64,000 nucleotides of DNA from an uncultured Acidobacteriota bacterium (GCA_963741135.1 CAVUHC010000006.1:669760-733759), one strand, 5' to 3'. Shown: positions 6,257 to 50,800, numbered from the stretch's first letter. Notes: generated from the sequence alone by a model not told the origin. Numbers and translations: made by a program.

Positions 6257-7999
6257 ATGAAGATTCTCTTCACGGCGCTCCATTTCGCGAACTACCGGAA
6301 CTTTGAGTCGGTCATCCGCGACCTCGGCGCCCGCGGCCACCACGTCCATCTCCTGGCGGATGAAGAAGAGAGCTCCGGTGGACGGGCGCTCGTCGAGCGA
6401 CTGGCCGCCGAGTATCCGACGATCACGTGGGGATCGACGCCGTCGCCCGCGGAGGAGCCGTGGTTCCCCGTCGCGCAGAAGCTCCGGTTCGCGCTGGACT
6501 ATGTGCGGTATCTCGATCCGCGGTACGCCGACGCGAAGAAGTTGAGGCTGCGTAATATCGAGCGCGCGCCTCGCGTCGTTCGCTGGATGACGTCGGGCAT
6601 CGGCGGCGTGCTCATCGGCTATCGCCCCATCATTCTCGGCCTGAAGTGGATCGAGCGGATGCTCCCGAACAGCCGTGCAATGACGCAATATCTCGAAGAT
6701 GAGCGACCGAACGTCGTGCTGCTGACATCGCTGACGGTTTCCCGCACTCTGGCCATGGACCAGTTGAAGGCGGCGCGTGCGCTCGGGATTCCGACAGCAG
6801 CGTGCATCATGAGCTGGGATCATCTCTCCAGCAAGGCGCTGCTACACATTGCGCCCGACAAGACGATCGTCTGGAACGATATCCAGAGGCACGAAGCGGT
6901 GGACATGCATGGTATCCCCGCCGAGAACGTTGTCGTCACCGGCGCGCAGTGCTACGACCAATGGTTTGAAAAGCGTCCCCATCGCTCCCGCCACGAGTTC
7001 TGTCAGGCGGTCGGGCTCGAGGCGTCGAAGCCGTTTGTGCTCTACGTGTGTTCCGCGATGAGCCCGGTTCCGAATCCGGTCGAGCCCGTCTTTGTGAAGA
7101 AATGGATCGATGCGTTGCGGACGAGCGCGGATCCGATTCTGCGAACGGCAGGCGTGCTGGTACGTCCGCACCCTGAGCGCACTCGCGAGTGGGTCGGCGT
7201 CAGCCTTGCGGGCCTCGAGAATGTGGTTGTCCGCGGACGGACCCCGATTGACGGCGACGCAAAAGCGGACTATTTCGACTCCCTGTATTACAGCAGCGCC
7301 GTCGTCGGGCTGTGCACGAGCGTCTTCCTCGAGGCTGCCATCGTCGGCCGTCCGGTGTTGACTATGCTCCTGCCCGAGTATCGGATGCACCAGGACGGTA
7401 TGGCGCACTTCCGCTATCTACTGACCGTCGAAGGTGGACTCCTTCACACAGCGACGGACGTTCCCGCTCATCTCGCCCAGCTTGCCCTGGCGATGAACAG
7501 CGTCGGCTCGCGCGACGAGAGGAATTGCCGGTTCGTGACGGCGTTCGTGCGCCCCCAGGGACTCGACAGGCCCTCGACGCCGCGTTTTGTCAATGCTGTC
7601 GAGCAGCTCGCGCGAAGTGGCCGCCGTACGCCAGATCCGCAATTGACGCGCCCGTCGCCATTTCGCGGCGTTGTCAGACGCCTCGCAATCGCGGGCGCGA
7701 ACGGCCTTGGGGCCTGGCTGCTGATGGACAGCGTCGACGAGCAGCGTGCAGTTCTCGAGCGCGATCGCGAAGTCTCAAAGCGCGCCAAAGCGGTCGAGCG
7801 TGAGCGTCGATTCGAGGAGAGACGCTGGCACATCGACGCGCAGCGGAAGACAAAGGCGAACGAGAAGGCGGCAGACAAAGCGGAGAAGGCACGCCAGCAT
7901 GCCCGGAAGGCGGCGGCGAAGGCGCGCCAGCTTGCGGAGAAACGGAAACGTGTCGACGCGGAGCGCGCCGCGAGCGGCCAGACCGGCGTAGCACCGTAA
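6257..7999 (+). CDS. Family-A paralog A5, intact (580 aa), with C-terminal Lys/Arg/Glu/Ala-rich tail
   Basis: ORF 6230..7999, with a likely start at ATG 6257 (MKILFTALHFANYRNFESVIRDLGARGHHVHL). All family blocks are in one frame: MSWDHLSSKALL, VTGAQCYDQWF, LYVCSA, VLVRPHP, ADYFDSLYYSSAVVGLCTSVFLEAAIVGRPV, QDGMAHFRYL. The tail starts at ~7727. Confidence 0.85.
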   Translation: MKILFTALHFANYRNFESVIRDLGARGHHVHLLADEEESSGGRALVERLAAEYPTITWGSTPSPAEEPWFPVAQKLRFALDYVRYLDPRYADAKKLRLRNIERAPRVVRWMTSGIGGVLIGYRPIILGLKWIERMLPNSRAMTQYLEDERPNVVLLTSLTVSRTLAMDQLKAARALGIPTAACIMSWDHLSSKALLHIAPDKTIVWNDIQRHEAVDMHGIPAENVVVTGAQCYDQWFEKRPHRSRHEFCQAVGLEASKPFVLYVCSAMSPVPNPVEPVFVKKWIDALRTSADPILRTAGVLVRPHPERTREWVGVSLAGLENVVVRGRTPIDGDAKADYFDSLYYSSAVVGLCTSVFLEAAIVGRPVLTMLLPEYRMHQDGMAHFRYLLTVEGGLLHTATDVPAHLAQLALAMNSVGSRDERNCRFVTAFVRPQGLDRPSTPRFVNAVEQLARSGRRTPDPQLTRPSPFRGVVRRLAIAGANGLGAWLLMDSVDEQRAVLERDREVSKRAKAVERERRFEERRWHIDAQRKTKANEKAADKAEKARQHARKAAAKARQLAEKRKRVDAERAASGQTGVAP

Positions 8000-8004
8000 A
8001 TCAG

Positions 8005-9910: not shown

Positions 9911-9923
9911 ATCCGCCGAACGC

Positions 9924-13787: not shown

Positions 13788-15324
13788 AAATTCTTTTCGC
13801 TGCGCTGCACTACGGGTACTTCCGCAATCTCGAGTCGGTGGTCGAGGAGCTCGCTCGGCGCGGGCACGACATTCATCTGACCGCGGAGCGGCAGGATTCG
13901 GCGCTCGTCGGACACTCGATCGTTGAGCGGCTGGCGGCCAGTCACGAGACCGTGACGTTCGGGGTGATGCCGCGGCGCGAGCGCGAGTATTTCTTTCTGG
14001 CGTCGAAGATCCGGCTGTCTCTCGACTACCTCCGCTATCTGCAGCCGGCCTACGCGAAGACCCCGGCGCTTCGCCGCCGCGCGCGCGTGCGGACGCCCAG
14101 GGGGTTGCTTCGCGTGCTGCGCTGGCCGCTGCTTCGTACGTCCGGTGGCAGGCGCCTGGTCTCACGCGCGCTCGATAACGTCGACCGTGCGATGCCGCCC
14201 AGCCCCGCGATTGAGCGCTTTCTGGACGAGCAGCGCCCCGACCTCGTGATCATCACCCCGCTTGTCGGCGTCGTCGCGTCGTCGCAGCTCGATCTGCTGC
14301 GCAGCGTCAAGTCGCGGCGCGTGCCCACGGCTGTCTGCGTCTGGAGCTGGGATCACCTGTCGAGCAAGGCGATCATCCGCGACGTGCCAGATCGCTTGTT
14401 CGTGTGGAACGACGTCCAGAAGCGCGAAGCGATCGAGATGCACAGGGTTCCAGCCGATCGCGTCATCGTCACAGGTGCTCAATGCTTCGACCGGTGGTTC
14501 GATCGCCAGCCGTCGCGTGGACGCGCGGAGTTCGCGCGGCGCGTGGGACTGCCCGACGACCGGCCGTTCATCCTGTGGGTGTGTTCGGCGCTGTTTCCCG
14601 GCAGTCCGTCCGAAGCCGCAGTTCGTCATGCGCTGGGCGGCCGCATCTGCGCGCGTCAACGGACCCGGGCATCCGCGATACCGCGATCCTCATTCGTCCC
14701 CATCCGTCGCGTGCGCGCGAGTGGGAGACGGTCGATTGGCGCAGCGTCACCGGCGTAGCGTTCTGGGGCGGCAATCCGATTGACGAGGAGTCGCGCGCGG
14801 ACTACTACGATTCGCTCCACTACAGCGCGGCGGTGGTCGGCCTCAACACGAGCGCGTTCATCGAAGCCGGAATCTCGCAGCGCCCGGTGATGGCGATCCT
14901 GCCCGAGGAATTCAGAGCGAACCAGGAAGGCACGCTGCATTTCCGGTATCTCGTCGAAGGCGGGCTGCTGACGATCGCGCGATCGCTCGCCGAGCACGAG
15001 CGCCAGCTCGTCGCCATTCTTGCCGGTCCACCAGCTTCGGTCATGCAGCGGCAGCAGGATTTCGTCCGGTCGTTCGTGCGGCCGCGCGGACTCACGGTCT
15101 CGGCGACCGGTGTCATGACCGACGCGATTGAATCGCTCGCGGCCGCGGGGCCGGTGGATGTGCCACGTGCGGTGCCGGTGAGCGGACGGCTTGGTTTCGC
15201 AACACTTCGTGCGCTCGCGCGCACGCCCGCCGGTCGCCGGCTGCTGCTCGACGAGCGCGAGACGAAAGCCAAGAGGCGGCGCGCTGCCGCCGAGCACGCG
15301 CGCGGGGCGGCGGGGATCGCCTGA
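13784..15324 (+). pseudogene. Family-A paralog A7, at least 2 frame changes at ~14610-14660
   Basis: TTG 13784 overlaps TGA 13785-13787. LKILFAALHYGYFRNLESVVEELARRGHDIHL, WSWDHLSSKAII, VTGAQCFDRWF and LWVCSALF are in ORF 13700... QFVMRWAAA is in ORF 14262... ILIRPHP, ADYYDSLHYSAAVVGLNTSAFIEAGISQRPV and QEGTLHFRYL are in ORF 14404..15324. Confidence 0.75.
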
Positions 15325-17069
15325 TGAAGATCCTCTTCTTCGCGCGCCACTACTCCTATCTCCGGTTGTTCGAGTCGGGGATCGCGGAGCTCGCGCGGAC
15401 GAGGACATCAGATTCACCTGTCCGCTGATCGCGAAGAGTCGATGGGCGGCCGTGGCATGGTCGAGCGGCTCGCTGAAAAGCTACCCGAACATCACGTTGG
15501 GGACGACGCCGGGACGCGCGCCGGGAGCTTGGACGGAGTTTGCACGGCGGCTGCGGCTCGGGATCGATTATCTGCGGTATCTCGATCCGCGCTACGCGGA
15601 CACGCCGCATCTCAAGACGCGGGCGCGCGATCGCGCGCCGCGCAGCGTCGTGGCGATTGCCGAGCGGCTCAGCGCCGGCGCGCGCGAGACGTTTGGGCGC
15701 CTGCTCCGGACGCTCGAGCGCGGCATTCCACCGAGCCCGCACCTCGAGACCTACATCCGACAACAGACCCCGGATGTCGTGCTGATCACGCCGCTCGTCG
15801 AGCTCGGCTCACCACAGATGGATCATCTCGCGGCAGCGAAGGCGCTTGGCGTTCGCACGGCGCTGCCGGTGGCAAGCTGGGACCACCTGTCGAGCAAGGC
15901 GGTCGTCCGGAATCATCCAGACATGCTGCTCGTCTGGAACGAGATTCAGAAGCAGGAAGCGATCGAGATGCACGGCGTCGCGCCGGAGCGCGTCGTGGTC
16001 ACCGGGGCGCACTGCTACGACCAATGGTTCGGCCGCGCCCCGTCGAGGAGCCGCGACAGCTTCTGTTCGCGCGTCGGCCTGCGATCGGACCGCGCGTATG
16101 TGTTGTATCTCTGCTCGTCGCTGTTCCGGGGAACGGCCAGCGAGGCCGCGTTTGTCGAACGGTGGGTTGAGGCGATTCGCACCAGCGACGATCCACGGTT
16201 GAAAGACATCGGGCATCCTGATCAGACCGCACCCCGCGCGACGCGATGAGTGGAAGGACGTCGACCTCTCCGGCTACAAGAACATCGTGTTCTGGGGCTC
16301 GCATCCGGTCGATGACGAGGCGAAGGACGACTATTTCGATTCGATGTACTACAGCGCCGCCGTGGTCGGCCTGAACACCAGCGCCTTCCTCGAGGCGGCG
16401 GTTGTCGAGAAGCCGGTGCACACGGTGCTCGTCGATGACATCTCCAAGCACAACCAGGAAGGCACGATTCATTTTCACTACCTGCTCGATGTGAACGGCG
16501 GTCTGCTGCGCGTGGCGCGCACGCTCGACGAGCATCTGCGCCTGCTGGCGGATTCACTGGCGCCTGAAGGCGGCGGCGACGTCAAGGCGCATCGCTTCGT
16601 CGAAGGCTTCATCCGGCCGCTCGGCGCGTCAGTAGCGGCCACGCCGCGATTCGCGGACGCCCTGGAGACGCTGGGCGCGTCGCCGTCGCCGCGTCCTGTC
16701 GGCGATGGTCTTGCGGAGCGCGCGCTGCGACTGGCGTTGTATCCGGCCGTTGGCACGTTGCAGCTGCTCCTCCTGACACAGCCGCACCGCAAGCGCGTGC
16801 GGTTGCAGTTCCGCAAGTGGTACTACGATGGCCGGCGGCGTGCGTTCGTGAAGCTGAAACAGTTCGCGCAGAACCAGCTTGGAGAGAAGGAGCTGACCGC
16901 TGCGCCGCTCGGCCCGCCGTCGGCGCTCACGCCGAAGCCGGGCCGCCAGCGTGACCCCGCGAAGAAACTCGCAGGCTGGAACCTGCCGGAGGCAGAGGAG
17001 ACGCGCGAGTTGATCGACCGCGCTCGGCCGGAGCGGCCGGCCGATTCTGATCGGGCCGTGGCTGTCTGA
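15324..17069 (+). pseudogene. Family-A paralog A8, at least 3 frame changes; C-terminal boundary with B1 unclear
   Basis: ATG 15324 abuts TGA 15322-15324. MKILFFARHYSYLRLFESGIAELAR (frame 0), RGHQIHLSADREESMGGRGMVERLAEK (ORF 15442 frame), ASWDHLSSKAVV, VTGAHCYDQWF and LYLCSSLF (ORF 15191..), then LIRPHP.., DDYFDSMYYSAAVVGLNTSAFLEAAVVEKPV and QEGTIHFHYL (ORF 16287..17069). The last ~120 codons of this ORF look like the N-terminal extension of a family-B protein. Confidence 0.65.
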
Positions 17070-18000
17070 AGCAGGGTTCGAGCTGCTCTATTGGATCCCG
17101 TTTCTTGCGTGGGCGAAAGCCTATGGCAATCTCGATCCCTCGCAGCTCGTCGTCATTTCGCGCGGCGGAGCGTCCTCCTGGTATCGCGACATCACGACCA
17201 ACTATGAGGACGTGCTGTCGTTCTACACGCCAGAGGAATTCCGCGTGCGCAACGACGCGCGCATCCTCGAGCAGCGCGGCCGGCTGAAGCACGTCGAGAT
17301 CTCGAGCTTCGACCGCGAGATCATCGCGAAAGTCACGGAGAAGCGCGGCCTCAGCGGTGTCCGCCTGCTGCATCCGTCGACGATGTACCGGTTGTTCGAC
17401 CATTTCTGGTTCCAGCGCGTCCCGGTGACGCTTATCGAGGCATTCACGTCGTTCGGACCGCTGCCGCCGGTTGATATCGGCGATCTGCGCAACCGTCTGC
17501 CGCAGCGTTACGTGGCCGCGAAGTTCTACGGCAACACGGCGTTGCCAGACACGCCGGACAATCACGCGTTCGTAGCGTCATATCTCGAGGAGCTGACACG
17601 GCACGTCGATGTCGTCCTGCTCAACACGGGGCATCGGTTCGACGATCACGAGGACATGGCGCGGGTCGACCGCAGCCGGATTCACACGATCGATCAGCTG
17701 ATGACGCCGGCGACGAATCTCGACGTGCAGACGCGCATCATCGCGGGCGCCGACGCGTACGTCGGCACCTACGGCGGATTCTCGTACGTCGCCCCGCTCG
17801 TCGGGACGCACGCACTGACGTTCTACTCGCACATCACCGGCTTTCGATTCGACCATCTCGAGGTCGCCAAGCGCGTGTTCTCTGGATTGCGCAAGGGGAG
17901 CTTCGTCGAGGTCGATCTCCGATCGATCGATCTGCTGCGACTCGGATTCGGCGGCGGCACCCAGGTGACCGACGCGCTCGCGGGAGTGACCCGCGGGTGA
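17014..18000 (+). pseudogene. Family-B paralog B1 (uncharacterised, GT-B/GT9-like C-terminal block); N-terminus lies in the A8 frame
   Basis: ILIGPWLSEAGFELLYWIPFLAWA, ISRGGASSWY, HPSTMYRLF, YVAAKFY, VLLNTGHRFDDHEDM and NLDVQTRIIAGADAYVGTYGGFSYVAPLVG are present. Frame 1 is open only from 17014 and has no canonical start. The upstream part (..ETRELIDRA) is in the frame of ORF 16287..17069. Confidence 0.65.
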
Positions 18001-19037
18001 GCGGATTGTTCACCGCGCTGAAGCGGCCACTGCGCGACGCGCTGCGCCATCGCGCCGAGTTGCGGGAGCAACTGCAGTGGTCACGGGCCGCATGGCAGGT
18101 CGAACGCGAGATCGAGGACGCCGTGACCGGCGGTCGCACGCTCGTGGTCGGACCGTGGCTGTCGGAGGTCGGGTACGAGGCGCTCTACTGGGTTCCGTTT
18201 CTTCGCTGGGTGACGGAGGCGTTCCGTCTCGATCCTTCGCGTGTGGTTGCGGTGTCGCGCGGGGGAGTGGCCTCATGGTACGCCGGCATCGCCGGCCGCT
18301 ATGTCGAGATCTGGGACGAGATCGACCCCGCTGATTGTGCGCGACGCTCCGCGGAACGCGGCGTGACGAAGCAGTTGGAGATCTCGGAGTTCGACCGCGA
18401 CGTCATCGCGGCAGTCGAGCGGCGGATCGGCGCCCCGATCGACGTGCTGCACCCGTCGTTGATGTACCGGCTGTTCTCGCTCTTCTGGTCAGGGCACCGT
18501 CCGCTCAGTTTTCTCGACGCGCACACCCGCTTCGAGCCGGTGGTTCCGCCCCGGATCATCGATACCAGCCGTCTTCCGCGCGAGTATGTCGCGGTGAAGT
18601 TCTACGCGGCGCGCTCGCTGCCGGATACGCCGGAGATCCGTCGCACGCTCGCGTGGTTGGTCGACAGTCTCGCCGAGCGCACCAACGTCGTGCTGCTCGA
18701 TACCGGCCTCGTCCTGGACGAACACACCGACTACGCCTTCGGGTCATCGGGGCGCGTCATCAGCGCGAAGCCCTGGATGACGCCGGCCAACAATCTTGGC
18801 GTGCAGACTCAAATCATTGCCGGCGCTCGGGCATTCATCGGCACGTGCGGCAGCGTCGCGTGGCTCGCGCCGATGCTCGGTGTGAACACGTCCGCGGTGT
18901 ACGTCGATCCGAAGTGGCTGCACGCGCACCTCGGGGTCGAGCTGCGCGCCTGTCATCGCGCGGGCGCCGGCCGGTTTGCGGCGCTCGATCTGCGAGCGCT
19001 CGATCCGCTGGGCGTACCCGTCCACGTCCGTTCATGA
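17997..19037 (+). CDS. Family-B paralog B2, intact (346 aa)
   Basis: GTG 17997 overlaps TGA 17998-18000. LVVGPWLSEVGYEALYWVPFLRWV, VSRGGVASWY, HPSLMYRLF, YVAVKFYAARSLPDT, VLLDTGLVLDEHTDY and NLGVQTQIIAGARAFIGTCGSVAWLAPMLGVNTSAVYVD are present. Confidence 0.8.
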   Translation: MSGLFTALKRPLRDALRHRAELREQLQWSRAAWQVEREIEDAVTGGRTLVVGPWLSEVGYEALYWVPFLRWVTEAFRLDPSRVVAVSRGGVASWYAGIAGRYVEIWDEIDPADCARRSAERGVTKQLEISEFDRDVIAAVERRIGAPIDVLHPSLMYRLFSLFWSGHRPLSFLDAHTRFEPVVPPRIIDTSRLPREYVAVKFYAARSLPDTPEIRRTLAWLVDSLAERTNVVLLDTGLVLDEHTDYAFGSSGRVISAKPWMTPANNLGVQTQIIAGARAFIGTCGSVAWLAPMLGVNTSAVYVDPKWLHAHLGVELRACHRAGAGRFAALDLRALDPLGVPVHVRS

Positions 19038-20101
19038 CATCGATGTCATCCAGTTCACATCCCGCGCTCGCCGGTCTCGGCTCCGGCCGCTGTCTCATCA
19101 TCGGCGAGGTCGCGCTCACGCACGACGGCAGCCTTGGCCTGGCGCATGCGTTTGTCGATGCGATCGCGAGCTCCGGCGCGGACGCGGTGAAATTCCAGAC
19201 GCACATCGCCGCCGCCGAGAGCACGCCCTCGGAGCCGTTTCGCGTGACGTTCAGCCGCCAGGACGAGACCCGCTACGATTACTGGAAGCGGATGGAGTTC
19301 ACCGAGGAGCAGTGGCGGGGACTCGCGGATCATGCGCGCCAACGCGGCATGCTGTTTCTCTCGTCGCCGTTTTCGGTGCAGGCGATCGAGCTGCTCGATC
19401 GCATCGGCGTGCCGATCTGGAAGATCGCGTCCGGCGAAACATCGAACACGATGCTGCTCGATCGTATTCTCGGCACGCGCAAGCCCGTGCTGCTCTCGAC
19501 GGGCATGAGCCCGATCGAGGAGATCGACGCCGCGGTCGCCCGCGTGCGCGCGCGCGACGTCAACGTCGGCGTGTTTCAGTGCACGACCGCGTATCCGTGC
19601 CCCGCAGAAAAGGTCGGCCTCAATCTCATCCCGTTCTACCGCGAGCGATACGGTTGCTGGGTGGGACTGTCGGATCATTCGGCGACGATCTACCCCGGCC
19701 TTGCCGGCGCGGCGCTCGGCATGGACATGCTCGAGGTGCACGTCGCGCTGTCGCGCGAGATGTTCGGGCCCGACGTGATCGCCTCGGTCACCACCGACGA
19801 ACTGCGCCAGCTCGTCGACGGCGTGCGCTTCATCGAACGCATGCGCGCGAGTCCGATCGACAAGGACGCATCGGCGCAGGAGACCGCGCCGCTTCGAAAG
19901 CTGTTCACGCGCAGCCTGGTCGCCAGCGCCGATCTGCCGGCTGGGACCGTCATCACGCGCGAGCACGTCGCCATCAAGAAGCCAGGCACCGGCCTTCCGC
20001 CGGAGCGGCTCGAAGACATCATCGGCCGCCGTCTCGCGCGGCCCGTCACCGTCGATCAACTGCTGGCGGTAGACGATATCGAAGGACTCGCGCGCTCTTG
20101 A
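19034..20101 (+). CDS. neuB: NeuB-family nonulosonic acid synthase (PEP-condensing) with C-terminal SAF domain
   Basis: ATG 19034 overlaps TGA 19035-19037. CLIIGEVALTHDGSLGLAHAFVDAIASSGADAVKFQTH, PIWKIASGE, PVLLSTGMS, VFQCTTAYPCP, VGLSDHS and LEVHV are present, with a SAF-like tail (RSLVASADLPAGTVITREHVAIKKPGTGLPP). Confidence 0.88.
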   Translation: MTSMSSSSHPALAGLGSGRCLIIGEVALTHDGSLGLAHAFVDAIASSGADAVKFQTHIAAAESTPSEPFRVTFSRQDETRYDYWKRMEFTEEQWRGLADHARQRGMLFLSSPFSVQAIELLDRIGVPIWKIASGETSNTMLLDRILGTRKPVLLSTGMSPIEEIDAAVARVRARDVNVGVFQCTTAYPCPAEKVGLNLIPFYRERYGCWVGLSDHSATIYPGLAGAALGMDMLEVHVALSREMFGPDVIASVTTDELRQLVDGVRFIERMRASPIDKDASAQETAPLRKLFTRSLVASADLPAGTVITREHVAIKKPGTGLPPERLEDIIGRRLARPVTVDQLLAVDDIEGLARS

Positions 20102-21255
20102 CCAAACGGAAAATCTGCGTCGTTGTCACCGCCCGCCCCAGCTATTCCCGCATCCGCACCGCTCTCGCGGCCATTAACGAGCATCCCGATCTCGAGCTGC
20201 AGCTCGTGGTCGCCGCGTCGGCGCTGCTCGATCGCTACGGCAACGCGATTCAGGCGATCGAGCGCGACGGGTTCACGATCGCGCAGCGCGTCTACATGGT
20301 GCTCGAGGGCGAGAACCTCGTGACATCAGCGAAGTCCACCGGCATCGGACTCTCGGAGCTTGCGACGGTGTTCGACAATCTCAAGCCGGACGCGGTCGTC
20401 ACGATCGCGGACCGCTACGAGACGCTCGCAACCGCCGTCGCGGCGTCGTACATGAACATCCCCGTGGTGCACGTGCAAGGCGGGGAAGTGACCGGATCGA
20501 TCGACGAGAAGGTCCGCCACGCCGTCACGAAGCTCGCGAATCTCCACCTGGTGTCCACCAACCTCGCCGCCGAGCGTGTCCGCCGCCTCGGTGAGGAGCC
20601 GGACAGCATCTTCGTCACCGGATGTCCGTCGATCGACATTGCTGCGGAAGTCGCGGCGCGGCCCGCCATGGATTTCGATCCGTTCGTGAAGTACGGGGGC
20701 GTCGGGCCGACCACCGACCTCTCCAGGGGTTACGTGGTGGTGATGCAGCACCCGGTGACGACCGAGTACGAAGAGGCGCGGCAGCAGGTCGACGAGACGC
20801 TTTATTCGGTGAAACACTTCGGCGTGCCGGTGCTCTGGTTCTGGCCGAATGTCGACGCCGGATCGGACGGGACATCGAAAGGCATCCGCGTGTTCCGCGA
20901 GAAGGAAGATCCACCGAATTTCCACCTGTTCCGCAACATGTCCCCGGAAGATTTCCTCCGTCTCCTGTGCGGCGCGACGGCGATCGTGGGCAACTCGAGC
21001 GTCGCAATCAGGGAATGCTCGTACCTCGGCGTGCCGGCGGTGAACATCGGTAGCCGGCAGCTTGGACGCGAACGCGGGCAGAACGTGATCGACGTGGACC
21101 ACGATCGCAAGGAGATCTCCGACGCAGTCCAGACCCACATCACACGCGGCAAGCCGAAGCGCGACCTGCTGTACGGCGACGGCAAGGCGGGAGGTCGCAT
21201 CGCCGATTGCCTCTCGAAGGTTGAGCTGAAGATCGAGAAGAGACTGACGTACTAG
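20098..21255 (+). CDS. neuC: NeuC-type hydrolysing UDP-N-acetylglucosamine 2-epimerase, intact
   Basis: TTG 20098 overlaps TGA 20099-20101. KICVVVTARPSYSRI, KPDAVVTIADRYETLATAVAASYMNIPVVHVQGGEVTGSIDEKVRHAVTKLANLH, MQHPVTTEY, WPNVDAGSD, GNSSVAIRECSYLGVPAVNIGSRQLGRERG and LYGDGKAGGRIADCL are present. Confidence 0.88.
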   Translation: MTKRKICVVVTARPSYSRIRTALAAINEHPDLELQLVVAASALLDRYGNAIQAIERDGFTIAQRVYMVLEGENLVTSAKSTGIGLSELATVFDNLKPDAVVTIADRYETLATAVAASYMNIPVVHVQGGEVTGSIDEKVRHAVTKLANLHLVSTNLAAERVRRLGEEPDSIFVTGCPSIDIAAEVAARPAMDFDPFVKYGGVGPTTDLSRGYVVVMQHPVTTEYEEARQQVDETLYSVKHFGVPVLWFWPNVDAGSDGTSKGIRVFREKEDPPNFHLFRNMSPEDFLRLLCGATAIVGNSSVAIRECSYLGVPAVNIGSRQLGRERGQNVIDVDHDRKEISDAVQTHITRGKPKRDLLYGDGKAGGRIADCLSKVELKIEKRLTY

Positions 21256-21280
21256 GCGGGTCTCAAGACCCGCCTCTACA
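21256..21280. repeat. REP-like hairpin, GTAGRGG-hairpin family (reverse orientation)
   Basis: GGCGGGTCTCAAGACCCGCC palindrome followed by TCTAC. Its reverse complement reads GTAGAGGCGGGTCTTGAGACCCGCC, matching elements at 32619, 39106, 40159-40210 and 54180. Confidence 0.7.
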
Positions 21281-21285
21281 TTGCG

Positions 21286-22233
21286 ATGACCGTCACCATG
21301 TCGCCGGATCGTCGGGCGCGGATCGCCGCGCTCGACTACAACTACGCGTCACAGCCGAAGCTGACGGTGACGTCCTGCAACCTGTGCGGGGCATCGGAGT
21401 TCGTTGTCCTGGCGCATCGCGATCGCTACGGCTATCCAGCCGAGGCGCACGCGTGCCGTCGCTGCGGCCTCGTCTTTCTCAATCCACGGATGACGGCGGA
21501 CTCGTACGGCCGCTTCTACAACGGCATCTATCGTCCGCTCGTGAGCGCCTTCCACGGACGCCTGATTGACGCCCAGACCATACAGGACGAGCAGCGCGAA
21601 TACGCGGCCGAGCGCGCCGAATTCATCCGCTCGTTCATGGCGAAGTCAGGCGGCCGGACGATGCTCGACATCGGGGGCTCGACCGGGGTGGTCGCCCATC
21701 ACTTCGCGCATGAGTTCGGCCTCGATGGCACGCTAATCGACCCCGCTCCGCTCGAAGTTGAACGAGCGCAGCGGCTTGGCCTCGAGACGATGACAGGGCT
21801 CGTCGAAGAACAGGACTTCGGCAACCGCCGCTTCGACGTTGTGATCATCTGCCAGACGGTCGACCACCTCCTCGACGTCGCCGGCACGCTCGCACGCGTG
21901 CGCCAGCTGTTGTCGGACAACGGTCTTTTCTTCATCGATATCGTGGACTTCCGCGCCGCGTACCTGCGCAACTGGTCGGTCGAGGACGCAGTGAAGATCG
22001 ATCATCCGTACTACCTGACCGAGTCGACGATGGTGGCGTACTTGAGGAGCAAGGGATTCGAGGTCCTCCGCAGCGACTACGCGGCCGATCATCTGCATGT
22101 GAGCTACGTCTGTCGACCCGGCACTGCGGACGCGGACGTCATGCCGGCGGCCGCGTCGGTCGACGAGTTGTTGCGCGAGGTTCGGTTTGTGCAGAACACT
22201 CGCGGACCTGAAAGGTTCGCGCCGCGTCCGTAA
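21286..22233 (+). CDS. Class I SAM-dependent methyltransferase with N-terminal Cys4 ribbon
   Basis: CNLCGAS..HACRRCGLVFLNP (paired CxxC), MLDIGGSTGVVAHHF (motif I), FDVVIICQTVDHLLD and LSDNGLFFIDIVD are present. It is embedded between neuC and neuA. Confidence 0.8.
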   Translation: MTVTMSPDRRARIAALDYNYASQPKLTVTSCNLCGASEFVVLAHRDRYGYPAEAHACRRCGLVFLNPRMTADSYGRFYNGIYRPLVSAFHGRLIDAQTIQDEQREYAAERAEFIRSFMAKSGGRTMLDIGGSTGVVAHHFAHEFGLDGTLIDPAPLEVERAQRLGLETMTGLVEEQDFGNRRFDVVIICQTVDHLLDVAGTLARVRQLLSDNGLFFIDIVDFRAAYLRNWSVEDAVKIDHPYYLTESTMVAYLRSKGFEVLRSDYAADHLHVSYVCRPGTADADVMPAAASVDELLREVRFVQNTRGPERFAPRP

Positions 22234-22245
22234 GGTTCGCGCCGC
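22201..22245. repeat. REP-like element overlapping the MTase 3' end
   Basis: CGCGGACCTGAAAGGTTCGCGCCGCG is nearly identical to 32575-32600 (one T/C difference). AAGGTTCGCGCCGC occurs twice (22212-22225 and 22232-22245). Confidence 0.65.
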
Positions 22246-22251
22246 ATCTGA

Positions 22252-22944
22252 ATGTCTCTCGTCCTTGGAATCGTTCCGGCGCGTGGCGGATCGAAGGGTG
22301 TGCCGGGCAAGAACGTGCGACCGCTCGCCGGGCGGACGCTCCTTGAGTACACAGCGCGCGCCGCGCGTGAGTCTGGCGTCCTCGATCGCGTGATCCTCAG
22401 TACCGATTCGCCGGAGGTCGCCGATACGGGACGACGGGCGGGGCTTGACGTGCCGTTCATGCGGCCCGCGACGCTCGCCAGTGACGACACGCCGATGCTG
22501 CCGGTGATCCAGCATGCACTCGAGTCGCTGGCGCGCGACGGCTGGTCGCCCGACATGATCGTCCTCCTCCAGCCGACGTCTCCGCTGCGGCGGCCCGATC
22601 ACATCCGGGCCGCCGTCACGACGCTGCGCGACACGAAGGCGGATTCAGTCGTGACGGTTGTCGAGATTCCGCGCCACCTGTCGCCCGATTACGTGATGCG
22701 TCTCGACGGAGGGCGTCTCCTGCCGTTCCTGCCGGAAGGCGCGCGCGTGACCCGCCGCCAGGACGCGCGACCCGCGTACTCTCGCGATGGCACCGTCTAC
22801 GCGTTCTGGCGCGCGACGATCGAGCGGTTCGGCGGTATTTACGGAGAGGATTGTCGGCCGCTGCTGATCGACGCGCGCGAATCGCTGAGCATCGACTCAC
22901 CGGCGGACTGGGATGCAGCCGAACGCCTCCTCGCAGGTCGCTAG
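22252..22944 (+). CDS. neuA: Acylneuraminate (NulO) cytidylyltransferase
   Basis: LGIVPARGGSKGVPGKNV, LSTDS, DVPFMRP, DDTPMLPVIQHAL, IVLLQPTSPLRR, RRQDARPAYSRDGTVY and LSIDSPADWDAAE are present. Confidence 0.88.
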   Translation: MSLVLGIVPARGGSKGVPGKNVRPLAGRTLLEYTARAARESGVLDRVILSTDSPEVADTGRRAGLDVPFMRPATLASDDTPMLPVIQHALESLARDGWSPDMIVLLQPTSPLRRPDHIRAAVTTLRDTKADSVVTVVEIPRHLSPDYVMRLDGGRLLPFLPEGARVTRRQDARPAYSRDGTVYAFWRATIERFGGIYGEDCRPLLIDARESLSIDSPADWDAAERLLAGR

Positions 22945-22962
22945 CGATGCTCATCGAGACAG

Positions 22963-23030
22963 GCCACGGAGGCACGAAGGCACGGAGAACAATTGCGATT
23001 CCTAGCTCCGTGTTTCCGTGTCTCCGTGGC
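22963..23030. repeat. Imperfect inverted repeat built from CACGGAG-type words
   Basis: The left arm is GCCACGGAGGCACGAAGGCACGGAG (22963-22987). The right arm is CTCCGTGTTTCCGTGTCTCCGTGGC (23006-23030). They are complementary at 21 of 25 positions, with an 18-nt spacer. The element overlaps the GTG 23018 start given for B3. Confidence 0.7.
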
Positions 23031-24079
23031 CCGTCGCAGTGACGTCGCTTCGACATCTGGTTCCGCGCCCTTTGCGGCTGGCGGCGAGCGCGTACCTCGC
23101 GCGACGCCACAGCGCGCAACTCCAGGGCGATCTCGCGGCGATAGCGGCGCGCCGGACAGTCATCGTGGCTGGACCGTGGCTCGGCGAGGTGGGGTTTGAG
23201 CTGCTCTACTGGGTCCCGTTTATCCGATGGTTTGCGGAACGCTTCAACGTACCTCCGGAGCGGCTTATCGTCGTGTCGCGAGGTGGTACCTCGTCCTGGT
23301 ATCGACCGTTTGCTTCGCGATACTTCGACGCCTTCGATCGGGTGACGCCGGAGACCTTCCGCGGCCAGCACGACGCACGCGTACGCGATCTCGGCGAGCA
23401 GAAGCAGACGCGCCTCACCGAATTCGATCGAGAGCTGATCGACGCCGCGACGCGGAGGACGAATGTCTCCGACTGGTCACTGTTACACCCCTCGCGCATG
23501 TACGCCCTGCTCAATCCGTACTGGTGGGGCCACCTGTCGAGCGGCTGGGTGCATCAACACACGCGCTATGCGCGCCTGTCTGAGCCTGATCGCATGGCCG
23601 ACATCGACATGCCGGAGCGGTATGTGGCGGCGAAGTTCTACTTCAATGATTGCTTTCCGGCCAACGCGCAGAATCGTGCGTTCGTACGCGATGCCCTTCG
23701 GACGCTTGCGGGCCGGGGACCGGTCGTCGCGCTGTCGACCGGGTTGAACATCGACGATCACGGCGGCGTGCGCCTCGATGAGTACGGCGTGCGCCATCTT
23801 CCCGAAGGGATTGATCCGGCGCGCAATCTGCACGTGCAGAGCACGCTGGTTTCACGCGCGCAGGCGTTTGTCGGTACCTACGGCGGGTTTTCCTACATGG
23901 CACCGTTCTACGGCGTCAGGTCCCTGGCGTTCTACAGCGACCCGTCGGGCTTTTCGCAGAAGCATCTTCACATGGCGCGATCCGCGTTCGACACGATCGG
24001 AGCGGCCGGCCTGCTGGACGTCCGCGACGCCGCCGCGGGTGCCGAAGCCGTGGATCACGCGTGGGCGGCGGGAGCGTGA
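23018..24079 (+). CDS. Family-B paralog B3, intact (start may be GTG 23042)
   Basis: VIVAGPWLGEVGFELLYWVPFIRWF, VSRGGTSSWY, HPSRMYALL, YVAAKFYFNDCFP, VALSTGLNIDDH and NLHVQSTLVSRAQAFVGTYGGFSYMAPFYGVRSLAFYSD are present. Confidence 0.78.
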   Translation: MSPWPVAVTSLRHLVPRPLRLAASAYLARRHSAQLQGDLAAIAARRTVIVAGPWLGEVGFELLYWVPFIRWFAERFNVPPERLIVVSRGGTSSWYRPFASRYFDAFDRVTPETFRGQHDARVRDLGEQKQTRLTEFDRELIDAATRRTNVSDWSLLHPSRMYALLNPYWWGHLSSGWVHQHTRYARLSEPDRMADIDMPERYVAAKFYFNDCFPANAQNRAFVRDALRTLAGRGPVVALSTGLNIDDHGGVRLDEYGVRHLPEGIDPARNLHVQSTLVSRAQAFVGTYGGFSYMAPFYGVRSLAFYSDPSGFSQKHLHMARSAFDTIGAAGLLDVRDAAAGAEAVDHAWAAGA

Positions 24080-25329
24080 CTGAACGCGGCTGGGCGGCGG
24101 TCGACGCACGCGCCCGGACGGCGAAGCGCGCGGCGTTCGCGGAGACCAAGCGCGGATTCAAGCTGGTACGGGAGCGTCTTCGCAACGCGGCGATTGCCGC
24201 CGTCAACCTTTCGGCGAAGCAGCTGCGGCGCGTATCGTGGTTCGGCGCGCGAGTGCAGAAGCAGGTGCACGAGCTCGGTGAAACGAAGAAGCGCGTCGAT
24301 ACGTTTCGCGCCGAGTGGGCGATCGAGCGCGACATCGCGCGCGTCGTTTCCGGTTCGGATCCGATCATCGTCGGGCCGTGGCTCTCGGAAGTCGGGTACG
24401 AGGTTCTGTATTGGGTGCCCTTCGTGCGGTGGGTTCAGTCGGAGTTCCGGATTCCTGCCTCCCGCCTGGTCGTGGTGACGCGAGGAGGGGCCGCATCCTG
24501 GTATTCGGACATCACGACGAACACCGTGGAGCTGTTCGATCTGATGTCACCGGACGACTACGCTTCACGCAACGCGCAACGCAGCGCCGAGGATCGCGGC
24601 ACGCTCAAGCAGTTCGGTGTCTCACCGATGGATCGCGAGATCGTCGCGGAGGTCGAGCGGCGGATTGGCGCGAGCCGGACGCGCCTCCTCCATCCGTCTC
24701 TGATGTATCAGCTGTTCCACCAGTTCTGGCTGGGACACCGGCCGCCGTCATTCCTCGAGAAGCGAACCAGATACCGGCTGATGTCGCCGCCCGATGTCGC
24801 GCTTCCCCCGCTTCCCGCGCAGTTCGTTGCGGTGAAGTTCTATACGGCCGCCTCGCTGCCGCCGACCGATCCGGTGCGTCGCGCGCTGCAATCGATCGTC
24901 CTTGGCCTGGCCGAGCAGACGCCGGTCGTGATGCTCGATACGGGGCTGGCGCTGGACGACCACGAGGACTATTCGTTTGCGGCCGCGTCTCGTGTTCACA
25001 GCGTTCGCGAGTCGTTCCACCCGCGCGACAATCTCGCGGTGCAGACGGCGATCATCGCCCGTGCCTCGTCATTCGTCGGCACCTGCGGCGCGCTCGCATG
25101 GCTGGCGCCGATGCTTGGCATCGACACGACCGCCGTGCTCGCCGACCCGCGGTTCCTGCATGGACACCTGCAGGTCGCCCGCCGGGTCTACCAGGTGATA
25201 GAGGGCGGACGATTCTCGCCGCTCGACATTTCCGCGTTCGATCAGCTCGGCATCGAGCTGTCGCGCGCCAGGGGCTCCATGACTGACGACCGAAGACCGC
25301 AGACTGTAGACGGCGGGACCCGACCATGA
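24061..25329 (+). CDS. Family-B paralog B4, intact, long basic N-terminal extension (alternative start GTG 24076 in a GTGA overlap)
   Basis: IIVGPWLSEVGYEVLYWVPFVRWV, VTRGGAASWY, HPSLMYQLF, FVAVKFYTAASLPPT, VMLDTGLALDDHEDY and NLAVQTAIIARASSFVGTCGALAWLAPMLGIDTTAVLAD are present. Confidence 0.8.
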   Translation: MGGGSVTERGWAAVDARARTAKRAAFAETKRGFKLVRERLRNAAIAAVNLSAKQLRRVSWFGARVQKQVHELGETKKRVDTFRAEWAIERDIARVVSGSDPIIVGPWLSEVGYEVLYWVPFVRWVQSEFRIPASRLVVVTRGGAASWYSDITTNTVELFDLMSPDDYASRNAQRSAEDRGTLKQFGVSPMDREIVAEVERRIGASRTRLLHPSLMYQLFHQFWLGHRPPSFLEKRTRYRLMSPPDVALPPLPAQFVAVKFYTAASLPPTDPVRRALQSIVLGLAEQTPVVMLDTGLALDDHEDYSFAAASRVHSVRESFHPRDNLAVQTAIIARASSFVGTCGALAWLAPMLGIDTTAVLADPRFLHGHLQVARRVYQVIEGGRFSPLDISAFDQLGIELSRARGSMTDDRRPQTVDGGTRP

Positions 25330-26464: not shown

Positions 26465-26478
26465 GCCCGAGCTCCCTG

Positions 26479-26537
26479 CCAACTGCCAACTCCCAAGCGT
26501 TGGGATTTGGGATTTGGGATTTGGGTTTTGGGATTTA
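26479..26537. repeat. Word-palindrome repeat: CCAACT/CCAACTCCCAA facing (TTGGGAT)n tandem heptamers
   Basis: The sequence is CCAACTGCCAACTCCCAAGCG followed by TTGGGAT TTGGGAT TTGGGAT TTGGGTT TTGGGAT. The 3' end TTGGGTTTTGGGATTTACCG matches 44571-44590 at 19 of 20 positions. Confidence 0.75.
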
Positions 26538-26540
26538 CCG

Positions 26541-29183: not shown

Positions 29184-29187
29184 AGAC

Positions 29188-32655: not shown

Positions 32656-33882
32656 ATGAGTGTTTCACTGGCGGCGCAGAACCTCGCGCGGGTCGTCTGG
32701 AACCGCGCGGCGAAGCTCTATCGCCGCGGCCGTCACTGGACGATGCGGCGCCGGAAGGATGTGCGCGAATCTGGCAAGCATGCACGCGCACAGGTGAAGC
32801 TCGGCGGCGAACGCGGCCGTGACGCAGCGCACAACGCGCACGCAGGTGTTGTGCGCACGTCGCGCTACTGGGATAGGCTGCGCCGCCGCACGTGGCCGGC
32901 GATCGCGCGCGACGTCTCGGCGCGCCGCACGCTGCGCACGTCTGCCGCGGGCTCGGGCCCGATCATCATCGGCCCGTGGCTGTCGGAGGTCGGGTATGAG
33001 GCGCTCTACTGGGTGCCGTTCGTCCGGTGGTTCACGCGGCATTACGACGTCGATCCGGATCGCGTCATCGCCCTGTCGCGTGGTGGCGTGTCGGCCTGGT
33101 ACGGCGGCATCGCGTCGAGGTACGTCGAGCAGTTCGACCTGTTCACGCCGCAGGAATTCGCGGCCCGCAACGAGGCGCGGCGCGGGGAGGCGGACCAGAA
33201 GCAGCTCGCGCATTCGGTGTTCGACGAGGAGATCCTGTCGCGCGTTCGCGCGAGTCTCGGTCTCGAGGACGCGCACGTGTGTCATCCCTCGGCGATGTTC
33301 CGCCTGCTTCGCCAGTTCTGGCTCGGGAACGACTCGCTGCAGTACGTCCTCGATTACACCGACTACGCGCCGATCCGGACCATCGGATCGATGGAGCTTC
33401 CGCCACTTCCCGATCAGTTTGTCGCGGTGAAGTTCTATACGGGACGCGCGCTGATGGACACGCCAGCGCATCGCGACATGCTCCGCGGCCTTGTCGAGCG
33501 GATCAGCCGCAGGTATCCGATCGTGACGCTCAACACGAACCTCGCGCTCGACGAGCACGAGGACTACGTGTTCCAGAACATTCCAGGCGTGATCACGCTC
33601 GATCGTTGGATGACGGCGCAGAACAACCTCGGCGTGCAGACCGAGGTGATCCGTCGCGCGACGCGGTTCGTCGGCACGTGCGGCAGCCTCGCATGGCTCG
33701 CGCCGATGCTGGGCACCGACACGCTGGCCGTGTACGCGGACGATCATTTCCTGACGCCGCATCTCTATGCGGCACGCCACGCCTACGCATCGATGGAAGC
33801 GGCCCGCTTCACCACGATGGATCTGGCCCTCTTGGATCAGATAGACGTCCTTGACCCGGCAGAAGGATGGGTGTCGCGGTAG
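32656..33882 (+). CDS. Family-B paralog B5, intact, long Arg-rich N-terminal extension
   Basis: IIIGPWLSEVGYEALYWVPFVRWF, LSRGGVSAWY, HPSAMFRLL, FVAVKFYTGRALMDT, VTLNTNLALDEHEDY and NLGVQTEVIRRATRFVGTCGSLAWLAPMLGTDTLAVYAD are present. Confidence 0.8.
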   Translation: MSVSLAAQNLARVVWNRAAKLYRRGRHWTMRRRKDVRESGKHARAQVKLGGERGRDAAHNAHAGVVRTSRYWDRLRRRTWPAIARDVSARRTLRTSAAGSGPIIIGPWLSEVGYEALYWVPFVRWFTRHYDVDPDRVIALSRGGVSAWYGGIASRYVEQFDLFTPQEFAARNEARRGEADQKQLAHSVFDEEILSRVRASLGLEDAHVCHPSAMFRLLRQFWLGNDSLQYVLDYTDYAPIRTIGSMELPPLPDQFVAVKFYTGRALMDTPAHRDMLRGLVERISRRYPIVTLNTNLALDEHEDYVFQNIPGVITLDRWMTAQNNLGVQTEVIRRATRFVGTCGSLAWLAPMLGTDTLAVYADDHFLTPHLYAARHAYASMEAARFTTMDLALLDQIDVLDPAEGWVSR

Positions 33883-40158: not shown

Positions 40159-40210
40159 GCGGGGCGTAACGCCCCGCCCTACGCGTGTAGGGTGCCCCTT
40201 TACGGGGCGC
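40159..40210. repeat. Three consecutive hairpins: two GTAGGG-hairpin REP units in inverted orientation (BIME-like)
   Basis: The hairpins are GCGGGGCG-TAA-CGCCCCGC (40159-40177), CCTAC-GCGT-GTAGG (40178-40191) and GCCCC-TTTAC-GGGGC (40194-40208). Confidence 0.7.
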
Positions 40211-40211
40211 C

Positions 40212-43624: not shown

Positions 43625-43625
43625 G

Positions 43626-43706: not shown

Positions 43707-43729
43707 GATCAACAACGCAGAAGGCAGAA

Positions 43730-44590: not shown

Positions 44591-44594
44591 CCGA

Positions 44595-50794: not shown

Positions 50795-50800
50795 TCACGA

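What the first reader, a model, noticed from the sequence alone, without database searches (positions are those of the whole stretch)
17014..19037. Second unplaceable multi-copy family (family B, five copies) interleaved with the nonulosonic-acid genes
The five copies are B1 (17014-18000), B2 (17997-19037), B3 (23018-24079), B4 (24061-25329) and B5 (32656-33882). They share these blocks: (I/V)(I/V).GPWLSE(V/A)G(Y/F)E.LYW(V/I)PF(L/V/I)(R/A)W; SRGG..SWY; HPS.M(Y/F).L; (Y/F)VA(V/A)KFY; L(D/N/S)TG...D(E/D)H; NL.VQ(T/S)....(R/G)A..(F/Y)(V/I)GT(C/Y)G(S/G/A)......AP..G. N-terminal extensions are variable and Arg-rich. The last block parallels the donor-binding segment of GT9 heptosyltransferases (..DSGpmHlAaAlG.P..). 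I read this as a GT-B transferase that I cannot name. Pairs sit directly before neuB (B1-B2) and directly after neuA (B3-B4). B5 directly precedes the GT-C-like D2.
Basis: partly seen in the sequence, partly recalled or inferred. Interest (0 to 1): 0.75.

Follow-up and report, generated by a model that had tools for sequence, protein, structure and literature searches.

The report
Unclassified GT-B glycosyltransferase-like family, five copies
Five diverged copies of a protein that matches no catalogued family fold like two-domain (GT-B) sugar transferases and sit, with a second unclassified transferase family, around sialic-acid-like sugar genes in a soil Acidobacteria (Vicinamibacterales) surface-glycan locus; it is a plausible new transferase family, not a new kind of system.

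Summary
Five paralogous B units lie at the stated coordinates, share the stated motif blocks, and are 32-49% identical; the most divergent pair gives BLASTP E=4e-67. One correction: B1 (17014-18000) is not a gene. It is the C-terminal domain of an ~890-aa A-B fusion protein (15324-18000) that four single-base insertions break in this window. B matches nothing in Pfam, NCBIfam or PDB sequences. An AlphaFold model of B2 (pLDDT 89, pTM 0.88) shows two Rossmann-like domains. Foldseek hits are only GT-B-fold proteins, namely GT9 heptosyltransferases/TibC, UDP-GlcNAc 2-epimerases and GT1, at 9-16% identity. Membership of GT9 is not supported at sequence level. B lacks the C-domain (K/R)XHP CMP-binding motif of sialyl/Kdo transferases. 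Its partner family A (nine copies here, counting the fusion's A part) carries an invariant RPHP there, so A is the better nonulosonic-acid transferase candidate and B is probably a companion transferase module. The A...A-B B neuB neuC MT neuA B B SDR order recurs in most of the longer Vicinamibacterales loci. Donor and acceptor remain unknown. I rate it a new sequence family of a known fold, of moderate interest.

The parts
15324..18000 (+). A-B fusion gene, ~890 aa in orthologues. The N-terminal part is a family A GT-B module with the RPHP motif. In this window the gene is broken by single-base insertions at about 15399, 15481, 16215 and 17016.
   Evidence: tblastn of the L001 890-aa protein at 96% identity across three frames; DNA alignment showing the four 1-nt insertions; 120 orthologues of 885-910 aa; AF2 model of P0391.
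17997..19037 (+). B2, 346 aa, a stand-alone B protein. Its GTG start overlaps the fusion gene's stop (GTGA). It lies directly upstream of neuB.
   Evidence: orthologues up to 97% identity; GT-B model
23018..24079 (+). B3, 346-353 aa (alternative GTG start at 23039). It belongs to the GTYGGFSY subtype with B1 and lies 74 nt downstream of neuA.
24061..25329 (+). B4, 422 aa, with a 104-aa basic N-terminal extension. It overlaps B3 by 19 nt, and its stop overlaps the start of the SDR gene (ATGA).
   Evidence: (95% identity to the L001 422-aa orthologue)
32656..33882 (+). B5, 408 aa, with a 105-aa basic N-terminal extension. It overlaps the start of the polytopic membrane protein D2 by 16 nt.
19043..22944 (+). 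Nonulosonic-acid cassette flanked by the B pairs: NeuB-type synthase (19043-20101), NeuC-type hydrolysing UDP-GlcNAc 2-epimerase (20098-21255), methyltransferase (21286-22233), CMP-NulO synthetase (22252-22944).
   Evidence: Pfam; NCBIfam: NeuC passes its cutoff, while NeuB and NeuA fall below the equivalog cutoffs, so the NulO type is undetermined.
6257..7999 (+). Representative intact stand-alone family A copy. Other copies: 3-1017, 1096-2430, 2848-4570, 4648-6154, 10935-12745, 13784-15267, and 55636-54254 on the minus strand. It is a GT-B module with RPHPxR and a charged C-terminal tail, and is B's fusion partner.
33867..35882 (+). D2, a 671-aa polytopic membrane protein with no Pfam match, translationally coupled to B5.
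   Evidence: co-occurs with B in seven of the other loci listed

Best explanation
Family B is a catalytically competent, cytoplasmic GT-B fold transferase module. It belongs to a sequence family that is not in Pfam or NCBIfam, and its topology is closest to GT9 heptosyltransferases. It works as the companion of family A in a Vicinamibacterales-specific assembly line for a surface glycan containing nonulosonic acids (NulO).

Shown:
- the GT-B fold;
- five anciently diverged paralogues, each with its own orthologue at >=90% identity in the syntenic contig L001;
- recurrent covalent fusion of A to B;
- conserved interleaving with neuB-neuC-MT-neuA.

Inferred, on the mechanism. The residues conserved across the family sit in loops at the C-terminal ends of the beta strands that line the inter-domain cleft:
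- E57/E61 in the beta1-alpha1 loop (GPWLSEVGYE).
- R88-G-G after beta2 and H152-P after beta4, on the acceptor side.
- D241-x-H243 after beta2' and the G-T-x-G285 loop after beta4', on the donor side.
B would bind a nucleotide-activated donor in its C-terminal domain and transfer the group to a growing glycan held by the N-terminal domain.

Inferred, on the division of labour. Family A carries the (K/R)XHP CMP-binding motif in its C-domain and B does not. So A most likely adds the NulO residues from CMP-NulO. B most likely adds the other residue(s), or acts on NulO-terminated acceptors. The two would alternate as the two modules of dual-module capsule polymerases do. The five B paralogues would differ in acceptor or linkage specificity.
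For: - Fold. The model is high-confidence, the listed PDB hits are all GT-B proteins, and GT9 enzymes give the best TM-scores among them.
- Conservation at the cleft: 28 positions are >=95% conserved across 158 B domains with a median 36% identity to B2. I placed them on the strand-end loops of the model by reading its DSSP assignment.
- Fusions: A-B proteins of 885-910 aa, 120 orthologues listed at 63-96% identity. The model has two GT-B modules, and one hit, the Actinobacillus serotype 3 capsule multienzyme 8qoy, aligns over 868 columns. B is also found fused to GT2, to a sulfotransferase, and to another B.
- Context: most of the 52 related loci of >=15 kb show A...A-B B (A) neuB neuC MT neuA B B SDR; a few show only A and B within the 21 kb fetched. 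The family is essentially confined to Vicinamibacterales/Acidobacteriota MAGs.
- No TM segments in any B copy.
- Motif logic: per PMC12887879, (K/R)XHP is conserved among sialyltransferases and retaining Kdo transferases, where its K/R and P residues contact the cytosine ring of CMP. A has invariant RPHPxR in 7 window copies and in all fusions. B has LHPS in the N-domain.
Against: - No biochemical data exist for any member.
- Foldseek scores are modest (E about 1e-5, TM 0.3-0.45, identity 9-16%).
- Non-transferase GT-B enzymes (UDP-GlcNAc 2-epimerases) rank equal to GT9.
- No residue-level structural superposition was available, so the assignment of E57 as base and of the GT.G loop as phosphate binder rests on loop position only.
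- hhalign to WaaC is not significant.
- K201, invariant among close homologues, is not among the positions >=85% conserved family-wide.
- hhalign of A against B aligns A's RPHP His with B's DDH His (probability 10%). B may therefore have a His at the CMP-phosphate position after all, which keeps CMP-NulO open as a donor.
Confidence: 0.6

Rival explanations
1. B is itself the nonulosonic-acid transferase, a new sialyltransferase-like family that uses CMP-NulO made by the adjacent neuB/neuA genes. A would then do something else.
For: - B pairs directly flank the neuB...neuA cassette in the window and in most related loci.
- No member of a known sialyltransferase or Maf family turned up among the window proteins scanned.
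- B has an invariant H-P dipeptide and a D-(D/E)-H motif.
- hhalign places B's H243 opposite the His of A's RPHP.
- The locus encodes three CMP-NulO synthetase-like genes, so several NulO transferases are needed.
Against: - B's HP lies after beta4 of the N-terminal domain, not in the nucleotide-binding C-domain, and the residue two before the His is L/V/C, not K/R. The (K/R)XHP test therefore fails.
- Family A meets that test and is just as tightly clustered with the NulO genes.
- No sialyl- or Kdo-transferase structure appears among the top 50 Foldseek hits.
- The A/B hhalign match is weak (probability 10%).
Confidence: 0.2
2. B is a GT-B fold enzyme that is not a glycosyltransferase. Candidates are a nucleotide-sugar 2-epimerase/hydrolase, a TagF-like polyol-phosphate transferase, or a pyruvyl or other non-sugar group transferase that modifies the glycan.
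For: - The top Foldseek hit is a UDP-GlcNAc 2-epimerase (3beo, E=1.1e-5), and epimerases fill about half of the top 50.
- Pyruvyl-transferase-like viral proteins appear at E about 3e-3.
- A small cytidylyl/adenylyl-transferase (26624-26986) and an SDR follow B3-B4.
- One B is fused to a sulfotransferase, a modifying enzyme.
Against: - The locus already has two bona fide NeuC-type epimerases.
- Five to eight diverged B paralogues per locus, and fusions to GT modules (A, GT2), fit linkage-specific transferases better than a sugar-nucleotide-modifying enzyme.
- There is no sequence match to Epimerase_2, Glyphos_transf or PS_pyruv_trans even at E<=10.
- GT9 enzymes give better TM-scores than epimerases.
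Confidence: 0.15
3. B is a non-catalytic GT-B-like scaffold or chaperone that organises or regulates the A transferases.
For: - B always co-occurs with A and is often fused to it.
- The long charged helical extensions could mediate protein-protein contacts.
Against: - Polar and charged residues (E57, E61, R88, K125, H152, D241, H243, N266, Q270, H311) stay >=95% conserved at cleft-facing loops across domains only about 36% identical. That pattern is typical of active sites, not of decayed pseudoenzymes.
Confidence: 0.05

Closest known systems
GT9 ADP-heptose:LPS heptosyltransferases and TibC/Aah protein heptosyltransferases (Pfam PF01075; PDB 3tov, 1psw, 2h1f, 4rap)
   Same: - Compact (~300-aa core) GT-B fold; GT9 enzymes are the best TM-scoring transferase hits in PDB and dominate the functionally named hits in the viral library.
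- An acidic residue in the beta1-alpha1 loop.
- A small-residue T/S-G loop after beta4' followed by a helix. The 'NL.VQ..I.A.A.FVGT.G...LAP' block aligns to WaaC 'SLEGVARVLAGAKFVVSVDTGLSHLTAAL'.
   Different: - No detectable sequence homology: PF01075 and the NCBIfam models give no hit at E<=10, PDB profile search gives no GT9 hit, and hhalign probability is 2%.
- B has its own invariant blocks that appear nowhere in the WaaC alignment (GPWLSE, SRGG..SWY, HPS.M, D(D/E)H), plus long basic N-terminal helices.
- B occurs fused to other GT modules, and no complete heptose pathway is evident in the locus.
Dual-module capsule/O-antigen polymerases with an ulosonic-acid transferase module. KpsC (two GT107 modules), WbbB (GT99) and KrkA (GT140 Kdo transferase plus ribosyltransferase) are described in PMC12887879. 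The Actinobacillus serotype 3 multienzyme is PDB 8qoy.
   Same: - Two GT-B type modules in one polypeptide (the A-B fusion).
- One module (A) carries the (K/R)XHP CMP-binding motif.
- Located in a surface-glycan locus that makes CMP-activated ulosonic acids.
- 8qoy aligns over 868 columns with the fusion model.
   Different: - Neither A nor B matches the Capsule_synth or other Pfam models of these families.
- 8qoy ranks 19th; KpsC, WbbB and KrkA are absent from both top-50 Foldseek lists.
- Here the modules are massively multiplied (about 9 A and 5 B in one window) and mostly unfused.
- No KpsMT-type export genes were identified among the genes scanned.
Bacterial GT-B sialyltransferases (GT38, GT52, GT80) and the Tannerella Pse/Leg transferases
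   Same: - GT-B fold.
- Genomic association with NulO biosynthesis.
- Presence of an HP dipeptide and an acidic D/E-D/E motif. The motif definitions are from Freiberger 2007 as cited in PMC5420450.
   Different: - In B the order and location are wrong. HP is in the N-domain at residue 152, and D-D/E-H (not G) is in the C-domain at 241.
- There is no K/R two residues before the His.
- No Pfam hit to GT52, GT80 or polyST models.
UDP-GlcNAc 2-epimerases (PF02350; PDB 3beo, 1f6d, NeuC 5xvs)
   Same: - GT-B fold, and the top Foldseek E-values.
- A conserved His after beta2' of the C-domain.
   Different: - No sequence match.
- Genuine NeuC genes are present separately in the locus.
- The multi-paralogue, fusion-prone behaviour is unlike epimerases.

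Membership tests
GT-B fold superfamily | Two Rossmann-like alpha/beta domains separated by a cleft, with the C-terminal helix region crossing back | tested here: met
   AF2 model of B2: pLDDT 89.2, pTM 0.88; N-domain strands at 48-54, 83-87, 101-104 and 148-151; C-domain strands at 197-201, 230-233, 254-256, 279-283 and 297-302. 55 PDB hits at E<=1e-3, and all 50 listed are GT-B proteins.
GT9 (Glyco_transf_9, heptosyltransferases) | Significant sequence match to PF01075 or the NCBIfam heptosyltransferase models, or to solved GT9 proteins | tested here: not met
   No Pfam or NCBIfam hit at E<=10 for any of the five copies. A profile of 125 B sequences against PDB sequences gives no GT9 hit at E<=10. 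hhalign against WaaC gives probability 2.2%.
GT9 (Glyco_transf_9, heptosyltransferases) | Catalytic acidic residue in the beta1-alpha1 loop (Asp13 of WaaC) and the D-T/S-G donor loop after beta4' | tested here: inconclusive
   E57 and E61 are >=95% conserved and lie in the beta1-alpha1 loop by DSSP mapping. The G-T-x-G loop aligns near WaaC V-D-T-G in a non-significant hhalign, and the Asp is replaced. No residue-level structural superposition was available.
CMP-ulosonic-acid transferases (sialyltransferases GT38/52/80; Kdo transferases GT99/107) | (K/R)XHP motif in the C-terminal nucleotide-binding domain (PMC12887879) | tested here: not met
   B has (L/V/C)HPS after beta4 of the N-terminal domain (residue 152 of B2), and the residue two before the His is L/V. 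Family A, by contrast, has invariant RPHP after beta2' of its C-domain.
CMP-ulosonic-acid transferases (sialyltransferases GT38/52/80; Kdo transferases GT99/107) | Use of a CMP-activated donor | not testable with these tools
   This needs enzyme assays or a ligand-bound structure. The only hint is the weak alignment of B's H243 with the His of A's RPHP.
UDP-GlcNAc 2-epimerase (Epimerase_2) | Sequence match to PF02350 / TIGR00236 / TIGR03568 | tested here: not met
   B gives no hit. The true NeuC at 20098-21252 scores 376 bits against TIGR03568.
TagF-like polyol-phosphate transferases (Glyphos_transf) | Sequence match to PF04464 | tested here: not met
   No Pfam hit at E<=10, and no TagF/TarL structures among the top 50 Foldseek hits.

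The most novel reading that the evidence does not exclude
Families A and B together form a previously unrecognised, lineage-specific glycan assembly system of Vicinamibacterales. About fifteen soluble GT-B modules per locus would build a surface polymer rich in nonulosonic acids, and B would found a new CAZy glycosyltransferase family. Its donor or acceptor chemistry would have no characterised counterpart: for example, transfer onto or between methylated NulO residues, or CMP-NulO use through a non-canonical binding site.
Probability: 0.25. Interest if true: 0.7.

Novelty: new variant of a known kind. Interest (0 to 1): 0.5.

Why it matters
Transferases for bacterial nonulosonic acids are poorly catalogued. 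New CAZy families are still being founded on single characterised enzymes: GT118 for a pseudaminyltransferase in 2024 and GT140 for a Kdo transferase in 2026, both cited in PMC12887879. The record titles of the genomes carrying these loci name groundwater, lake and similar environmental MAGs of Vicinamibacterales, and I found no glycan chemistry reported for the group. Two large unclassified GT-B families, A and B, are fused to each other and multiplied around three NulO cassettes. They point to a complex acidic surface polymer and offer a set of candidate enzymes for NulO glycoengineering. B alone comprises about 1,700 clusters at 50% identity.

Tried and rejected
- Exact look-ups of B2 and B5 in the assembly index found nothing, so the window genome itself is not on record.
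- Pfam and NCBIfam at E<=10 gave only chance hits: DUF6143, EreA, FadE.
- A PDB sequence profile search gave only a spurious 27-residue match to CmpC.
- phmmer of family A against PDB gave nothing.
- hhalign of B against E. coli WaaC was not significant, so GT9 membership is rejected.
- hhalign of the A domain against the B domain was weak (probability 10%), so B is not simply a diverged A.
- Literature searches for Acidobacteria or Vicinamibacter combined with nonulosonic acids found no relevant paper. Searches for NulO transferases found only the Maf, FlmG, Tannerella, KpsS1 and KrkA systems, none shown here to be related to B.
- I considered B as a heptosyltransferase fed by the adjacent SDR plus small nucleotidyltransferase. 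The best NCBIfam hit of the latter is rfaE domain II at 59 bits against a cutoff of 181. No other heptose-pathway genes were found, so this was left as speculation.
- I considered B as a membrane protein. No hydrophobic segments were found.
Full report
**The observation**

- (I/V)(I/V).GPWLSE(V/A)G(Y/F)E.LYW(V/I)PF..W
- SRGG..SWY
- HPS.M(Y/F)
- (Y/F)VA(V/A)KFY
- L.TG...D(E/D)H
- NL.VQ(T/S)....A..(F/Y)(V/I)GT(C/Y)G......AP..G

The five copies share 53 invariant columns and are 32-49% identical in pairs. The most divergent pair (B3/B4) gives BLASTP E=4e-67, so this is paralogy, not chance. tblastn finds no sixth copy in the window. The N-terminal extensions (51-105 aa) are R/K-rich, and the B2 extension is predicted helical. 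No B copy has a hydrophobic segment.

**B1 is a domain, not a gene**

The syntenic metagenomic contig L001 (ENA, 142 kb, 90-98% amino-acid identity) carries an 890-aa gene just upstream of the B2 orthologue. Residues 564-890 of that protein are B1.

The window matches this gene at about 96% identity, but across three reading frames. DNA alignment shows four extra single bases, at about 15399, 15481, 16215 and 17016. B1 also has no in-frame start codon before its GPWLSE block.

The fusion is real and conserved. 120 orthologues of mostly 885-910 aa were listed at 63-96% identity, and those that carry an organism name are mostly Vicinamibacterales. In the representative-cluster search, many B hits are 850-920-aa proteins with the B domain at the C-terminus.

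The stretch 7.9-17 kb of the window carries about 55 extra single bases and 13 missing bases relative to L001. The frameshifts therefore look like sequence-quality noise or decay of the upstream half of the locus. B2-B5 are intact.

**What B is**

B matches no catalogued sequence family:
- Pfam-A and NCBIfam give nothing at E<=10.
- A 125-sequence profile finds nothing meaningful among PDB sequences.

The family is nevertheless large. More than 2,500 proteins were found per query in the 90%-clustered collection; the B2 and B3 hits that carry a name are all 'hypothetical protein'. There are 1,678 clusters at 50% identity with E<=1e-3.

An AlphaFold2 model of B2, built on 125 sequences, is confident (pLDDT 89.2, pTM 0.88). 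It shows a 43-residue N-terminal helix followed by two Rossmann-like alpha/beta domains (about 48-175 and 197-331).

Foldseek against the PDB returns only GT-B fold proteins among the 50 hits listed (E 1e-5 to 9e-4, 9-16% identity):
- UDP-GlcNAc 2-epimerases;
- GT9 enzymes (3tov, WaaF 1psw, WaaC 2h1f, TibC), which have the highest TM-scores, 0.38-0.44;
- GT1 enzymes.

Against predicted viral structures, the hits that carry a functional name are mostly GT9/RfaF/TibC. The low TM-scores are what one expects when a hinge separates two domains.

**Is B a member of GT9?**

I then compared it with the B profile by hhalign. The probability is 2%.

B therefore resembles GT9 in fold and in one loop. It is not a detectable sequence member.

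**Active-site reading (inference)**

Across 158 B domains with a median 36% identity to B2, 28 positions are >=95% conserved. I mapped them onto the DSSP assignment of the model. Nearly all sit in loops at the C-terminal ends of strands, facing the inter-domain cleft:
- G52-P-W and E57, G59, E61 in the beta1-alpha1 loop;
- R88-G-G after beta2;
- H152-P after beta4;
- D241-x-H243 after beta2';
- N266/Q270 at a helix start;
- G285 after beta4';
- H311 in the last long helix.

This is the pattern of a working GT-B enzyme. K201 is invariant among close relatives but not among the positions >=85% conserved family-wide.

**The partner family A, and who handles the nonulosonic acids**

The model of the A-B fusion (P0391, pLDDT 86) has two GT-B modules joined by a 56-residue helix and a disordered stretch. 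Foldseek hits to it include MshA (GT4), 2-epimerases (target TM up to 0.70), and the Actinobacillus serotype 3 capsule multienzyme 8qoy, which aligns over 868 columns. Family A has only sub-threshold Pfam hits, to GT4-type N-domains.

PMC12887879 states that a (K/R)XHP motif is conserved among sialyltransferases and retaining Kdo transferases. Its K/R and P residues contact the cytosine ring of CMP.
- Family A has an invariant RPHPxR after beta2' of its C-domain, in seven window copies and in all fusions.
- B's HP lies in the N-domain, and L/V stands two residues before the His. B fails this test.

A is therefore the better candidate for the CMP-NulO transferase, and B is the companion module.

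One caveat remains. A weak hhalign match between the A and B domains (probability 10%) aligns A's RPHP His with B's D-D-H243. CMP-NulO use by B is therefore not excluded.

**Context**

The window is a glycan locus, mostly on one strand. It contains:
- three NulO cassettes: NeuC/NeuA at 8005-9865; NeuB-NeuC-MT-NeuA at 19043-22944; NeuB at 40191-41303 with a NeuA-like gene at 43754-44444;
- DegT aminotransferases, SDR dehydratases/epimerases and methyltransferases;
- GT2 and GT4 enzymes, and a WecA/MraY-type fragment;
- two unclassified membrane proteins.

Overlapping start and stop codons link B1-B2, B3-B4, B4-SDR and B5-D2.

I fetched 78 related loci from GTDB species representatives. Nearly all are titled Vicinamibacterales or Acidobacteriota, and the handful with other labels may be mis-binned. 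Most of the 52 loci of >=15 kb show the same A...A-B B (A) neuB neuC MT neuA B B SDR arrangement. A few show only A and B within the 21 kb fetched.

B also occurs fused to GT2 (P0277), to a sulfotransferase (P0251), and in tandem with itself (P0241).

**Verdict**

- The most likely function is a transferase module working alongside family A to build a NulO-containing surface glycan. Donor and acceptor are unknown.
- Rivals: B as the NulO transferase itself (0.2), a non-glycosyl GT-B enzyme (0.15), or a scaffold (0.05).
- B is a new sequence family of a well-known fold in a little-studied phylum. It is interesting to glycobiologists and a likely future CAZy family, but not a new kind of system.

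Noticed in passing
window 3-1017, 1096-2430, 2848-4570, 4648-6154, 6257-7999, 10935-12745, 13784-15267, 15324-16700 (+) and 55636-54254 (-): Family A has nine paralogous ~500-580-aa GT-B modules with no Pfam match above threshold. Seven window copies carry an invariant RPHPxR..EW motif, which fits the (K/R)XHP CMP-binding signature of sialyl/Kdo transferases. Stand-alone copies have highly charged C-terminal tails. A is the likely nonulosonic-acid transferase of the locus.
   Followed up: partly
window 7900-17016: Relative to the syntenic contig L001, this stretch carries about 55 extra single bases and 13 missing bases. They frameshift almost every gene here (NeuC, NeuA, a methyltransferase, several A copies, GT2, the A-B fusion). 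The stretch 17017-26200 has none inside genes. This is either a low-quality assembly region or decay of the upstream half of the locus.
   Followed up: partly
window 33867-35882 and 28720-30240: Two membrane proteins with no Pfam match: D2 (671 aa, at least 10 hydrophobic segments) and a 506-aa protein with about 5 segments. In several related loci they occur together next to B copies (for example 'B U506 D2 B'). They are candidates for a polymerase, ligase or exporter.
   Followed up: partly
window 40191-46551: A third NulO-related block: a second NeuB (40191-41303), an aldehyde dehydrogenase (41669-43624), a frameshifted NeuA-like cytidylyltransferase (43754-44444) and a transketolase-like protein (44911-46551). 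This suggests an unusually modified nonulosonic acid.
   Followed up: no
window 25326-27646: Directly after B4 come an SDR epimerase/dehydratase (frameshifted near 26219-26235), a 132-aa nucleotidyltransferase whose best but sub-threshold NCBIfam hit is rfaE domain II (heptose-1-phosphate adenylyltransferase), and a 220-aa methyltransferase. Together they could supply a nucleotide-activated donor for B.
   Followed up: partly
proteins P0241, P0251, P0277, P0244, P0263 (one search hits, not in the window): Other architectures of the B domain in metagenomes: B-B tandem (729 aa), B plus Sulfotransfer_3 (701 aa), GT2 plus B (734 aa), and 1,100-1,430-aa proteins with further unannotated regions.
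   Followed up: partly
window 49363-53038: A WecA/MraY-type phosphoglycosyl transferase fragment (Glycos_transf_4), a GT4 (Glycos_transf_1) and a GT2 follow downstream on the same strand. This points to undecaprenyl-phosphate-linked initiation of the glycan.
   Followed up: no
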